Source: Pecten maximus
Taxonomy: Eukaryota
DNA: 64,000 nt
Assembly (NCBI RefSeq): GCF_902652985.1
Contig: NC_047022.1
Coordinates: 43,710,001-43,774,000 of the forward strand
Reading direction: 5' to 3'
In this document: piece after piece, positions 53,301 to 58,600 of the stretch
How positions within the stretch are numbered: position 1 is the first letter of the stretch
Layout of the letters: every line of letters starts with the position of its first letter
Notes under the pieces: generated by a model
Told to the model about the DNA's origin: nothing
The model's input: the letters and a program-made list of their open reading frames with translations, nothing else
Databases searched by the model: none
Program-made: the position numbers and the translations under genes

Positions 53301-54648
53301 AACTGTTCCATGAAAGCTCCTTCCCTTCGCTCCCTTTCTTGTTGTTTGAGAAGTTCCAGTCGGTCTCTCTCTTCTCTCCTCCTCTTTGCCTCAGCCTTAA
53401 TTCTTGCCAATCTTAAAAGTCAATGTCAATTGTTTCATGACAATTTTTTCCCAATTTTTTTATTTTAAATTTATTTCCACAAACTATGATCACATTTCCT
53501 TCCATTTAGATTTTTGTAAGATATAATAGGATACAACATTTTTTTTCTGGGACAGCAAAGAAAAGGAATTATTAAGTAGAGTTTTTGAAAACAAAAACCT
53601 GACTCGTCATAAGACATTAAAAACATTTTGATTTTGGTGTTAAACCCAAAATTTCTTATTAAATCAGCCAGATTTCATGAATATATGTAATATGATTCAA
53701 TGAGGAAACATAAACATCATTAGTTAATGATTTTGGTCTAGGAAATGCTGCTAATGTCCGTATCTGCTCAGAGTAACCATATTGACAAAGGTGCTTTAAA
53801 ATCAGAATCATAGGAATAAAACTGTTTTTCTTGACCTAATGTTGTCTCTGTGGTACATGTATGCCTGTATCTCTGGCCTTTACAAAAGATGAATTGCCAT
53901 TATATGACACTGGTTGTTTGTGAGAACATTAAACCCCGAACAAACAATTAATATTGTGGAAAGATAAACAGATGTAGGAACCCCCCTCCCCAGATAGCCA
54001 TGAACAGCTTTCAATGTTGAATAGCTACATGTGCACTACATACCTGTTGTCCTCAATGTTAAACAGCTGTTTCTTGAGATCATCAGCCACCTCCCTCAGG
54101 CCTCTTACATATGGTGATGCCTCTGAGAGGTTACAATATCTAGGATTATTCCTCATCAGGTACTGAGCTAAGAAGTTAATGGGATTAAAATTTGGTGCCA
54201 TATCTTGCTCTTCTGCTAGTCCTCTATTGTCTGCCTCGTTAAGTAATTTCTCCACTCCCAGAATCAGGGTTGGTAACACTTTATCTACCAAGTATGCCCT
54301 AACTTCTAATGTTGCCTCATTGTTATTAAGCCATTCTTTAGCAAGAACTTCAATGGGGATTTTTCTGGCAACTTTCTTAGCATCATCTCTTGAGAGTCTA
54401 ACATTCTGTTTCTTTTCGTTCCGTATAACCACTAATTTTTCCATCATGTTCTGTTCGTGAAGTCTCTTCCACCTTCTGACAGCACTTCTGACAACAGGTT
54501 TTGAGTAATCCCCAGAGTTTGGTGTGCCTGGTGTTTTTCTCCCTGTAGCACTCCCATTGCGATTCTGATTATCCTTCCCTGCTGATAAAGTCACTCTCTT
54601 TTTTGGACTGCTTGGAGTGCTCGGCTTCACAGCTAAGGTGTCCGCCAT
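35890..54648 (-). CDS. EFCAB5: EF-hand calcium-binding domain-containing protein 5, 20 coding exons, ~1386 aa if the 1-nt frameshift in exon 19 is corrected
   Basis: Exons: 54648-54044, 53411-53255, 52746-52609, 51619-51464, 50874-50775, 50424-50326, 48678-47950, 46646-46539, 46238-46042, 45943-45787, 43487-43336, 42642-42514, 42235-42063, 41634-41541, 40733-40599, 40288-40035, 38688-38438, 37169-36943, 36556-36453, 36086-35890. All GT-AG and phase-consistent except exon 19. Signature [40 protein letters not shown]-hand [21 protein letters not shown]-like segments. Confidence 0.92.
37734..38447. repeat. 31-bp minisatellite (~23 copies) derived from the exon 17 donor of EFCAB5
   Basis: Minus-strand unit TGGTGTTAG|GTACAATTCTATATCAAAGTTT versus true junction ATGGTGTTAG|GTATGTTTCTCTATCAAACTTT. 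Confidence 0.92.
39010..40037. repeat. ~37-bp (18-20-bp monomer) minisatellite in EFCAB5 intron 16, starting at the donor
   Basis: Minus-strand monomers CAG-GTAAGGGAGGTGTGCAA / CAG-GTATGGGTGTGCAA versus true junction CAG|GTAAGAGCAAGATGCAA; degenerate near the exon, homogeneous further away. Confidence 0.85.
43637..45808. repeat. 38-bp minisatellite (~57 copies) derived from the exon 10 donor of EFCAB5
   Basis: Minus-strand unit GAGAACTGGGCCATAGAAAGGG|GTRAGGTTAGAATAAG versus true junction GAGAACCAGGCTATAGAAAGGG|GTAAGGTTATAATAAG. Confidence 0.95.
48400..48582 (-). repeat. 18-bp coding repeat (PTEGEK)x~10 in EFCAB5 exon 7
   Basis: Translation [12 protein letters not shown]... within a 729-nt Glu/Lys/Thr-rich exon. 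Confidence 0.9.
48795..49457. repeat. 30-bp minisatellite (~22 copies) resembling the exon 7 acceptor of EFCAB5
   Basis: Minus-strand unit TGTTACCAATAGTTTATAG|ACAAAGGAAGC versus true acceptor TGTTACCAATAAATCTGATAG|ACAAGGAGGT. Confidence 0.9.
51688..51838. mobile_element. Palindromic MITE-like element (~150-bp hairpin)
   Basis: ttgttggatatggaatttatttcacacgagtaagttatttt..aaaagtt pairs with aacttttaaaaataacttacgagtgtgaaataaattccatatccaacaa. Confidence 0.75.
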
Positions 54649-55367
54649 GTTTCAAACTGAATGAGAAAATAAGTACATACATTATTTCATGAGAACCTGA
54701 TGCATTTTACGTGACGTTGAAAATAAGGACATTTTTGGATGAGAGATCCAAATCTTAATTCGAAATGAGGAACTAAATCTAATGTGCTCCGTATCCTTAT
54801 TTGCATTTTACTATTATTTCTCTCAGTTAAAGTTACATACATTTTACATGCATAAAATTCATCCCTGATTAATTTCCTGATCATGCAACGAGCACTGATT
54901 TAGGTAATTTCAGACGTTGTGTTTAGCGGATCTAACTACATGTTATTACATTTTATTATTGTAAAACTAATTGGTCACCCATCAGTAATTGTTTACACAT
55001 AATGGCATTGACAATGATAAAGTAATTAAAGCCAAAGATTGACAATACATATTATATGTCATATATTTACAATCATGTATCCGTTGGTCTGTTTATAGTG
55101 CCAATGAAACTGATCATCAATGTTGCAATCTATAAAGTTATGATAGGTCGATAGTATATGTAACGACCGATAACAATATGACAGTCCGTGATAAGCACAA
55201 CTAATATAGGTAGGTTCTATTGACATGGCTAAAGAGACTTATATGTATATGCATGCTACTGAGTGTGGCAGCAAGCACCTTGCTCAAAATAACAGGTCAT
55301 GAAACGTCAAAATCGAAGTTAATAAATAGCAAATCATTGCCACGACGATTTATTCTTTCCGACTTAC

Positions 55368-55646: not shown

Positions 55647-58600
55647 ATGGCTTTAGTTACCGTACAACGATCGCCAAGTCCAAGCAATTCGCCAGATTCG
55701 GTAAGTAAAACAAATACCGTGGTCTGGTTCCTATCTGAGAATCCAAATTCTGCTAGGCCTACACCTGGTTCGTAACTGAACTGTAGATAAGAGATAATTA
55801 AATATTTAAGCTATTTATCTACATTTATATCGCACAAACATATAAGAGAATAAACTAGATTACGGTTTTTGTTTACTTAAACAGCAATGTTTTCATATGT
55901 GTCGCTGTCATGTTGATGACTTAAATTTGGACCACATAACCTGTTCAGGGATGAATTAGTATTTGTTAGTTCTATTAGATGCACTCTCGTTTTCAATCAG
56001 AACTTGTTAGCCTTCAGTTTTGCACACTGTGTGTTGCCTTCCATGACAGAATTGAAAATGTGCTAAACAATTGATTCTAAAATCAATTCAACATGGATAT
56101 TATAATTGATAATAATTGTATCACTTAATTAATTTCAATACCAGTCAATTGAGTAGATGTGTCAGTAAAAGTTGAAGACTAATCAATGACACCAACAATG
56201 GTGAGTTATGATGGGAAGTTAACTTAGCTATATATATATGTAACAGGAGAGGAGAAAATGTAGCGGCCAGGTCGGGGTTCGAACCCGGGACCTCCGAACA
56301 CTAGCCGGATGCTCTTCCGATTGAGCTACCTGGTCACCGATGATCGACCCAGTCCAGTCCCGCTACACACCTCCCTCCTTTTTTTTTTCTCAAGTATACG
56401 CCTTTGAAGACACATGAGACCCTTATACCACCACCGCAGGTTTTTTAGTTGGGCACCAATTTTGTAACAGGAGAGGAGAAAATGTAGCGGCCAGGGCTGG
56501 GTTCGAACCCGGGACCTCTGAACACTAGCTGGATGCTCTACTGACTGAGCTACCTGGTCACCCATGTTCGACCCAGTCCAGTCTGCTAATAGAAACAGGA
56601 CGGCATTGGAAAATACCTCATAATTTAAGATTTTGTCCTTCCTGTAAAAATAATGTAGAAGATGAATACCATTTTTGATTTAAATGTCTCTCCTTTAACG
56701 ATCTTAGAATAAAATATAAAAAGCAACATTATCGGGTTAATCTTGCTGTCTATGAGTTTATCAATTTACTATAAACTGGTAATGTTAAAGAATTAAGTAA
56801 TCTGGGCCAGTTTTCATACCACCATATAGGTTCTACTCTGATGACTTCCATAGTAACTAGTAGTTTGATCCATACAATGCATTTAACTGTATTTAATCAT
56901 ATTATATATATATTATATAGATTCATATTATAATGTCATATGCCAATGGATTGCTCTACCTGAGCTGACTTGAATTGTATTCTATGAAATTGTACATGTG
57001 TCACAGTAGGAGCGGAAAAATGCACCCAGACACTCAGAGAGTCAAGAGAGTCTCGATTTTGTAAGACCATGTATATGTGATTGAGTGTGCCCAATATAAA
57101 ACATCAGTATATTTTATTAAAATCCACACATCTTTCTCTCATTATAAACAACTTTTTTTAAATTTTTTTTTTGATTTTTATTTGGAGTGTTAAAAAATAG
57201 CATTTTGAAAGGTATAAAACAAAAACAAAATCATAAAAAAATGAAAGCTATTCAAACAAAAGTTGTCAAATAGATAAAAGAGGTATGGTTTTCAATAAAA
57301 TATACCAAAATATGAAATTTTAATGTTTTATATAGGATGCACTCCATCATAAAATACTAATTAATATGAGAAGTCTCACAAATGGTTTCAACTTCTGTGC
57401 ATATATTTACAGTTTATTTTTGTCATCGGCCAGGGAAACCCAAACCAAAGCCTAAAACGTACCTTGTTGGTCTGGCTATGTTTGGTTTTCTGTGTACTGA
57501 CTTTGTACTTTTACACAGATTAGAAAAAAAAAAAATACATGCTACTACAAATGAAAACATATCGTTAATCTGGAACTTAATATATGCTTACATGCAATAT
57601 AATCAATCTTATTACATAATTATGACCATACAGTATTCCACATTTTCCATTTGTGCTAGTATTGAAATACTGGATAGAGAGGAACTTAATAAATGTTATT
57701 AAGATATATTATTTGCCCATATACAGCCCTAAAATGGGTAGAACAAATGTATTTTATGAATAGAACTATATCAAAATGCAAGCTAATCATCTTTAGTGGT
57801 CAGTTGAAGGGAGATAACTCTGATCACACAATACATGTTAAGGATATTTTTTCACTTTATTACATTGATAAGTTTTTTTCACTATTGTGAATTTCCCAAA
57901 CACTTTAGAAGTTGTTTCTTCATTAAATTTATAACAATTGATTGTTCATTAGTTAATTACTCACACACATATTATATAAACAGAGTAACAATATATTACA
58001 AATGTAAGCAATAATTATGATAGTATGATATATGACTATTCTGGAGGTGTCAGAACTTAATTAGGGATTTCAATTTTGGATGTAAATCCCTATTGTTATC
58101 ACTGGTTTTTTTTTCTTCCTCTTCTTTCTTCTTATTATTCTTAACACTTCTTGATAACACTTTCATTCAAAAACGAAAACAGTTGAAAAGTTATAATTTC
58201 TTAGTAGAGTACATGAAAGAGAACTATAATTTAAGCTGATTATTGACACTAACATTTTGGGGATCATAAGTTCAAAGGTCAAGGTCATCGATCTAAAATT
58301 AGATTTAAAAAAATGCTTTTTGAACGACAATAACTAAATTTATCAACATTCGTCGCTCAGTGTGTCATGTAGTTCATACTCGGGGCTAAATTTTCTCACT
58401 GTGGGTTCAAATTTAGGTCAAAAATTAAAGTCTCAAATTGAGTGATTTTTCTATCATATATGAACAAGCAAGTTTTTCCTGCCAAAATTTAAAAAATCAG
58501 GGGGAAAATGCACTTAGAATGTTTCAGCTCCTTAATCTATACACATACAGACTTGATATTTTGCTCAACATGTACAATAGTATGTAAGAGTGGCTACAAA

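What the first reader, a model, noticed from the sequence alone, without database searches (positions are those of the whole stretch)
54648..55700. EFCAB5-Slingshot head-to-head pair, apparently conserved with vertebrates
Seen: divergent genes with ATGs 1 kb apart and first exons within ~300 bp, around ETS, NRF1-like, YY1-like and RFX-like motifs. From memory, human SSH2 and EFCAB5 are also adjacent head-to-head on chromosome 17. Inference: an ancient bilaterian bidirectional promoter linking a ciliary/sperm-type EF-hand gene to a cofilin phosphatase. The tiny SSH exon is invisible to the ORF track.
Basis: partly seen in the sequence, partly recalled or inferred. Interest (0 to 1): 0.7.

Follow-up and report, generated by a model that had tools for sequence, protein, structure and literature searches.

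The report
Ancient back-to-back EFCAB5–Slingshot gene pair
In a scallop, the gene for a predicted sperm-tail and cilium protein (EFCAB5) and the gene for an actin-regulating phosphatase (Slingshot) begin back to back within about 60 bases; a distant clam has the same layout, and it is likely kept in snails, echinoderms, an acorn worm, amphioxus and (from recall) humans because the two genes likely share one short promoter.

Summary
Confirmed, and tighter than reported. The EFCAB5 ATG (54648, minus) and the Slingshot ATG (55647, plus) are 999 bases apart. RNA contigs show a non-coding EFCAB5 exon 1 (55368-55477) and Slingshot exon 1 from 55537, a gap of at most 59 bases. Slingshot PH, DEK-C and phosphatase exons follow 54-67 kb downstream. 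A venerid-like clam contig has the same head-to-head layout and shares a 16-base RFX-half-site/YY1-core element, unique in the scallop genome, with an ETS core 42-43 bases away. Accession numbers or locus tags are consecutive in 7 of 14 species checked (four molluscs, starfish, acorn worm, amphioxus) and nearly so in 2; numbers do not show orientation. The human pair is recalled, not tested. Coral contigs pair EFCAB5 with another gene, and one bryozoan-like contig lacks Slingshot exon 1. The RFX site stays with EFCAB5 where Slingshot is absent. The NRF1-like motif is weak. Best reading: a shared compact core promoter that is hard to break, rather than tight co-regulation. A new member of a known class (ancient head-to-head pairs); supplements that may list it could not be read.

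The parts
35890..55477 (-). EFCAB5 gene (Dpy-30-like motif, EF-hands, GAF domain), from non-coding exon 1 to the inferred stop at 35892-35890
   Evidence: single locus in the genome with a Capitella query; last exon inferred from sequence
55368..55477 (-). EFCAB5 non-coding exon 1 (5' limit is the farthest contig end, not a mapped start site)
   Evidence: joint 54656/55368, CT..AC, in 4 of 4 runs
54044..54656 (-). EFCAB5 exon 2, first coding exon, ATG at 54648
   Evidence: (94% to Ylistrum EFCAB5-like)
55478..55536 (.). 59-base gap between the two first exons: inferred shared core promoter
   Evidence: contig ends 55477 and 55537; promoter role inferred
55511..55519 (+). ETS-type site ACTTCCGGT; the clam has CCGGAAA at matching spacing (42 versus 43 bases from the composite element)
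55460..55475 (-). Composite RFX half-site plus YY1-core/ATG element TAGCAACnAATGGCGG
   Evidence: 1 match in 918 Mb, control 0; exact in clam contig L015 at 3279-3294, 0.01 expected
55451..55457 (-). Second RFX half-site TAGCAAC in EFCAB5 exon 1
55526..55533 (+). NRF1-like partial site TGCGCATG (weak; not aligned in the clam)
55537..55700 (+). Slingshot exon 1: 5' UTR plus 18 codons from ATG 55647
   Evidence: (N-terminus of P0122)
60254..60327 (+). Slingshot exon 2 (74 bases, phase 0 to phase 2)
   Evidence: matches P0122 residues 19-43
60328..64000 (+). Start of the 49.5-kb Slingshot intron 2; exon 3 lies at G000:C8:43,819,812, beyond the window

Best explanation
EFCAB5 and Slingshot are transcribed away from each other with first exons at most 59 bases apart, and they likely share one compact bidirectional core promoter whose entanglement likely keeps the pair together. 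Shown: the layout, the splicing, and a sequence footprint shared with a distant clam. Inferred: an ETS (GABP/ELK-type) site and a YY1 core give general activity in both directions, while RFX bound at EFCAB5's own 5' end raises EFCAB5 in ciliated cells and sperm. Inferred: a break or insertion would have to fall in a tiny target and would strip one gene of its core promoter, so the pair has survived since the bilaterian ancestor in slowly rearranging genomes. Regulation is likely asymmetric: Slingshot is probably broad and has further starts in its intron.
For: Gap of at most 59 bases. Same layout in clam contig L015: ATGs 901 apart, Slingshot exon 1 also 54 coding bases, element to Slingshot ATG 183 versus 172 bases, ETS core to element 42 versus 43. 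Element unique in the genome. Consecutive accessions or tags in 7 of 14 species, nearly consecutive in 2. TAGCAAC stands upstream of EFCAB5 in contigs where no Slingshot exon is seen. Coral EFCAB5 also sits head-to-head, with another gene. Two annotated alternative Slingshot first exons map inside intron 2.
Against: No start-site mapping, binding data or reporter test. Orientation was read from DNA in only two bivalves. The footprint rests on two species. Numbers are far apart in 3 of 14 species (Pinctada 760, Glandiceps 150, Capitella on separate scaffolds) and 13-17 apart in 2. No Slingshot exon 1 within 8.5 kb of the presumed EFCAB5 start in bryozoan-like L065 or 3.1 kb in L045, so the link can apparently be broken. 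The region is not GC-rich (0.355). The YY1 core could instead be a conserved upstream ATG.
Confidence: 0.55

Rival explanations
1. Functional co-regulation: RFX at the shared promoter raises both genes together during sperm or cilium building, coupling a radial-spoke protein to cofilin-driven actin turnover, and selection keeps the pair for that reason.
For: Mouse EFCAB5 regulates sperm motility (PMC12423330, title and abstract start). Mouse SSH2 is required for acrosome biogenesis (PMC10065795, title and abstract start). RFX2 regulates mouse spermiogenesis (PMC4745085, title and abstract start). The RFX half-site lies about 60 bases from the Slingshot first exon.
Against: The RFX site persists beside EFCAB5 without Slingshot in view. 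Corals use another partner. Slingshot has internal starts. Contigs cannot show levels, so co-expression was not tested.
Confidence: 0.2
2. Neutral persistence: the pair is a leftover of ancestral gene order in slowly rearranging genomes, and a short intergenic stretch is simply rarely hit.
For: Other ancestral neighbours remain on the chromosome: a coronin 0.75 Mb away and NSRP1 9.3 Mb away (their vertebrate linkage is recalled). Apparent losses in some contigs.
Against: Those neighbours have drifted apart while this pair has not. Spacing and a 16-base non-coding element are kept between scallop and clam although the flanking intron no longer aligns.
Confidence: 0.13
3. Regulatory-block constraint: enhancers inside the very long Slingshot introns act on EFCAB5, or the reverse, and hold the genes together whatever the core promoter does.
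For: Slingshot intron 2 is 49.5 kb and holds alternative exons; human SSH2 also has very long first introns (recalled).
Against: Neither gene is a developmental transcription factor, the usual target of such blocks (recalled from Irimia 2012). No conserved intronic element was tested. The conserved footprint found is at the promoter.
Confidence: 0.1

Closest known systems
Conserved ancient microsyntenic pairs in 5'-5' orientation (Irimia et al. 2012, PMC3514665; seen: listing and abstract start; content otherwise recalled)
   Same: Unrelated genes kept adjacent across protostomes and deuterostomes, divergent, starts well under 1 kb apart.
   Different: Whether this pair is in their table is unknown (supplement not readable). 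Here a base-level promoter footprint and a different coral partner are shown.
Human SSH2-EFCAB5 at 17q11.2 (head-to-head order recalled; PMC12885720 passages name both with NSRP1 and SLC6A4 as co-mapped genes but do not state adjacency)
   Same: Same two gene families; the recalled layout is the same.
   Different: Vertebrates have three SSH paralogues and one EFCAB5. From recall, the human region is a CpG island and EFCAB5 has a second start some kb away. NSRP1 is 9.3 Mb off in the scallop.
PRKN-PACRG bidirectional promoter (bioRxiv 10.1101/783373, abstract start)
   Same: An axonemal structural gene shares a bidirectional promoter with a broadly acting enzyme gene.
   Different: Unrelated genes; that promoter has been studied experimentally, this one has not.
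Mammalian bidirectional promoters with GABP/ETS, NRF1 and YY1 motifs (recalled)
   Same: Starts under 1 kb apart; ETS site and YY1 core present.
   Different: AT-rich with no CpG island, NRF1 site partial, and an RFX half-site on one side.

Membership tests
Slingshot phosphatases | N-terminal PH-like domain (PF23040) | tested here: met
   3 exon matches at C8:43,821,700-43,823,643, plus strand, best E 2.7e-14, the only locus found
Slingshot phosphatases | DEK-C domain followed by a DSP domain with the HCxxGxxR motif | tested here: met
   P0171 has DEK_C and DSPc; exon match to human SSH2 chain 2nt2_A; catalytic motif at L009:8165. The genome-wide DEK_C search missed the split domain.
Slingshot phosphatases | Conserved start M[AS]LVT[VI]QRSP joined to these domains | tested here: met
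   P0122 begins with window exons 1 and 2; splice phases agree. The exon 2-3 joint was not seen directly in RNA.
EFCAB5 orthologues | Dpy-30-like motif, EF-hands and GAF domain; best match to vertebrate EFCAB5 | tested here: met
   the named hits listed are EFCAB5(-like), EF-hand or hypothetical proteins; E 8.8e-215 to 1509-aa chain 9fqr_Xl, which the file labels AKAP14 and which I infer to be EFCAB5. No tree was built.
Bidirectional promoter | Divergent transcripts with starts under 1 kb apart | tested here: met
   strands inferred from splice sites
Bidirectional promoter | One DNA segment drives both directions; partners co-expressed | not testable with these tools
   needs reporter, CAGE or raw reads; only contigs were served
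Bidirectional promoter (vertebrate type) | CpG island or high GC | tested here: not met
   GC 0.355 in 55001-56000; expected in an AT-rich invertebrate
Bidirectional promoter (vertebrate type) | ETS, YY1 and NRF1 motifs | tested here: inconclusive
   ETS met; YY1 core only, but conserved; NRF1 not met
Ancient microsyntenic pair | Adjacent in both protostomes and deuterostomes | tested here: met
   By proxy: consecutive numbers in Mizuhopecten, Solemya, Gigantopelta, Patella caerulea, Acanthaster, Ptychodera and Branchiostoma lanceolatum; DNA in two bivalves
Ancient microsyntenic pair | Same 5'-5' orientation in deuterostomes and vertebrates | not testable with these tools
   no animal genomes other than G000 are held; the human order is recalled
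RFX target (X-box) gene | Conserved X-box at the start | tested here: inconclusive
   half-sites in scallop and clam; full GTTnCyTAGCAAC upstream of EFCAB5 in 4 of 55 contigs; sites were picked for holding the motif; binding untested
Genomic regulatory block | Developmental target gene with conserved enhancers in a bystander's introns | not tested
   no comparative intron sequence held

The most novel reading that the evidence does not exclude
A promoter older than 550 million years, born when EFCAB5 swapped its cnidarian-type partner for Slingshot, uses one RFX/YY1/ETS cassette to switch on a radial-spoke protein for the sperm tail and the cofilin phosphatase for the sperm head together: an ancestral bilaterian sperm-building module still wired in humans.
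Probability: 0.2. Interest if true: 0.65.

Novelty: new member of a known kind. Interest (0 to 1): 0.42.

Why it matters
Both mouse orthologues matter for sperm, yet no main text in the searched library treats them as a linked pair. If the promoter is shared, knockouts or variants at the 5' end of either gene may disturb the other, which bears on reading Ssh2 and Efcab5 mutants and human 17q11.2 association signals that name both. The 59-base gap with a two-species footprint is a small, clean test of why ancient head-to-head pairs persist: entanglement or co-regulation. The coral partner offers a way to date the origin.

Tried and rejected
Matches to the Slingshot start in L042, L044 and L047 read MALVTMYR in L042 and lack the QRSP pattern: chance. 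Patella caerulea first looked unlinked; one search showed a second EFCAB5 copy next to Slingshot. Capitella and Branchiostoma belcheri are uninformative (small scaffolds or different contig sets). The full NRF1 consensus and a full X-box at the scallop promoter are at chance level. The coral partner is not Slingshot and has no Pfam family; the DUF1499 look-alike at 0.81 is a lead only; no scallop orthologue was found with one exon, and the pattern hit L069 is likely chance. Identity could not place L045 or L062 in a phylum. The third protein search was filled by vertebrate SSH2 and listed no cnidarian Slingshot; no vertebrate EFCAB5 accession was obtained, so vertebrates could not be checked by number. 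No script-based gene model, tree or base-rate test could be run. Earlier-findings look-ups gave nothing on this pair.
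Full report
Setting. The window is G000:C8:43,710,001-43,774,000. The animal is a scallop: a Slingshot exon is 100% identical to P0122, which its source labels Pecten maximus, and the best EFCAB5 hits are other scallops.

The two genes. The minus-strand gene begins coding at 54648. Its first coding exon finds 157 relatives; the named ones among the 120 listed are EFCAB5(-like), EF-hand or hypothetical proteins. Its exons carry Dpy-30, EF-hand and GAF signals. A scallop relative matches a 1509-residue PDB chain, 9fqr_Xl, at E 8.8e-215. The file labels that chain AKAP14; I infer from length and score that it is EFCAB5, and recall the entry as a sperm axoneme. The plus-strand gene starts at 55647 with an 18-codon exon, continues at 60254-60327 and, after a 49.5-kb intron, at C8:43,819,812 with matching phase. 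These exons give the N-terminus of P0122. PH-like exons, a DEK-C/DSP-start exon and the catalytic motif follow on the same strand.

Transcripts. Four runs from four studies were laid on 50000-58500, as assembled contigs; one is on record as RNA, three by guess. All 4 splice a non-coding EFCAB5 exon (from 55368, reaching 55477 at most) to 54656. The listed pieces show Slingshot exon 1 in 2 runs, from 55537 and 55590, leaving the genome at the donor; the table was cut. The transcribed regions thus come within 59 bases. Contigs do not fix start sites, strand or level.

Motifs. Consensus strings are recalled. ETS ACTTCCGGT lies in the gap (2 in the window, 0.23 expected). NRF1 fails at 3 mismatches; its first 8 bases are present. 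YY1 and full X-box patterns are at chance level on their own. TAGCAAC occurs 3 times in 64 kb, twice in EFCAB5 exon 1.

A second genome with the layout. A scan of metagenome contigs gave 55 EFCAB5 loci; most have little upstream DNA. One, L015, holds a Slingshot exon 1 (1 of 68 loci held). Its EFCAB5 exon is 84% identical to Mercenaria, so it is a venerid-like clam; its split from scallops is recalled at nearly 500 million years. The genes are head-to-head, ATGs 901 apart, Slingshot exon 1 again 54 coding bases. Between them scallop and clam share TAGCAACnAATGGCGG, which occurs once in the 918-Mb scallop genome and is expected 0.01 times in L015; the pattern was drawn from these two sequences. 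An ETS core stands 43 and 42 bases from it, and the Slingshot ATG 172 and 183 bases. This supports the RFX-like and YY1-like calls in a way the motif counts could not. The second half also holds an ATG, a three-codon upstream frame in the scallop (55466-55455), so a translational role is not excluded.

Wider linkage, by proxy. Numbers were seen for 14 species. Consecutive in 7: Mizuhopecten OWF48233/234, Solemya tags 005391/005392, Gigantopelta XP_041350307-313/314-315, Patella caerulea KAK6189926-927/928-929, Acanthaster XP_022089635-638/639-643, Ptychodera XP_070572518-523/524-528, Branchiostoma lanceolatum CAH1233917-919/920-921. Nearly so in 2: Anneissia (533/535) and Haliotis asinina (next in a stride of 6-11). 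13-17 apart in 2: Mya and Ylistrum. Far in 3: Glandiceps 150, Pinctada 760, Capitella 359. The proxy is insensitive: Mizuhopecten is consecutive in GenBank but 13 apart in RefSeq. It assumes numbering follows position and says nothing on orientation. The other 5 species were not looked up.

Vertebrates. The head-to-head order of human SSH2 and EFCAB5 is recalled. Passages of PMC12885720 name both, with NSRP1 and SLC6A4, as co-mapped genes without stating adjacency. A cat paper, PMC7644637, prints 'EFCAB5 SSH2' in sequence (listing only).

Where the link is absent. In 3 coral-like contigs (L024 is 80% identical to Desmophyllum) EFCAB5 is head-to-head with another conserved gene, about 0.5 kb away; it is not Slingshot and has no known family. 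In L062, an unplaced distant animal, the upstream neighbour is a HECT ligase on the same strand. In L065 (73% to Bugula) and unplaced L045 no Slingshot exon 1 lies within 8.5 and 3.1 kb of the presumed start; a diverged exon would be missed. These two keep TAGCAAC, and 4 of 55 contigs have a full GTTnCyTAGCAAC upstream of EFCAB5. So the RFX site likely belongs to EFCAB5. A bilaterian origin fits, but loss in corals is not excluded, since cnidarian Slingshot was not located.

Mechanism. Shown: divergent first exons almost touching, and a conserved footprint. Inferred (0.55): one core promoter serves both, ETS and YY1 acting generally and RFX adding cilium and sperm expression to EFCAB5; separation is rare because it needs a hit in a tiny target and costs one gene its promoter. 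Slingshot is not wholly dependent on it: two annotated isoforms start inside intron 2. Co-regulation for sperm building (0.2) is attractive, as mouse EFCAB5 regulates sperm motility (PMC12423330) and SSH2 is needed for the acrosome (PMC10065795), both seen as title and abstract start only, but nothing here tests it. Neutral persistence (0.13) and intronic enhancers (0.1) fit less well.

Known or new. Ancient 5'-5' pairs are a described class (PMC3514665, listing and abstract start; I recall about 600 pairs). Searches for both gene names found 6 papers (EFCAB5, SSH2) and 5 (slingshot, EFCAB5), by title association or omics studies; none of the 15 listed for EFCAB5 with promoter or synteny terms held EFCAB5. 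Verdict: real, a new member of a known kind, interest 0.42.

Noticed in passing
L024:6432-6548, L027:952-1065, L028:1903-2012 (minus strands): In coral-like contigs EFCAB5 is head-to-head with an uncharacterised conserved gene (17 relatives for one exon; DUF1499 look-alike as a weak lead). L028 holds a second copy of this promoter and exon block about 1.4 kb further up.
   Followed up: partly
window 55455-55466, minus: A three-codon upstream reading frame inside the conserved element in EFCAB5 exon 1; the clam has an ATG at the same place.
   Followed up: no
G000:C8:43,018,281 and C8:34,411,114: A coronin lies 0.75 Mb from the pair and NSRP1 9.3 Mb away on the same contig; both are recalled as neighbours of human SSH2/EFCAB5.
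   Followed up: partly
L005:5184-5212 (C8:43,789,184): A Slingshot cassette exon in intron 2 (isoform X1), with similar sequence in Solemya, Liolophura and Lineus proteins.
   Followed up: partly
L008:5792-6913 (C8 about 43,819,800-43,820,900): The end of Slingshot exon 3 is repeated many times in tandem in the next intron, each copy with a donor-like site; the scallop proteins carry a short insertion there.
   Followed up: no
proteins P0080/P0326 and P0327/P0328; P0054 and P0337: Patella caerulea has a second EFCAB5 copy on another chromosome; Mya arenaria has two entries 38 numbers apart.
   Followed up: partly
window 8479-8492: A near-perfect palindromic X-box, far from the pair; its gene was not identified.
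   Followed up: no
window 10819-11178 (-) and 16878-19417 (+): A B-box zinc-finger exon and a histidine N-acetyltransferase-like gene lie further down the window.
   Followed up: partly
window 47912-48916, minus: EFCAB5 has a long acidic exon with a hexapeptide repeat; shorter scallop isoforms (about 1145 versus 1345 aa) may skip it.
   Followed up: no
window 56240-56590 and 51670-51890: Repeats with very high depth in the contigs laid; the first looks like a tRNA-derived element in Slingshot intron 1.
   Followed up: no
PDB 9fqr_Xl: A 1509-residue chain matching EFCAB5 is labelled 'A-kinase anchoring protein 14' in the file, likely a mislabel.
   Followed up: no
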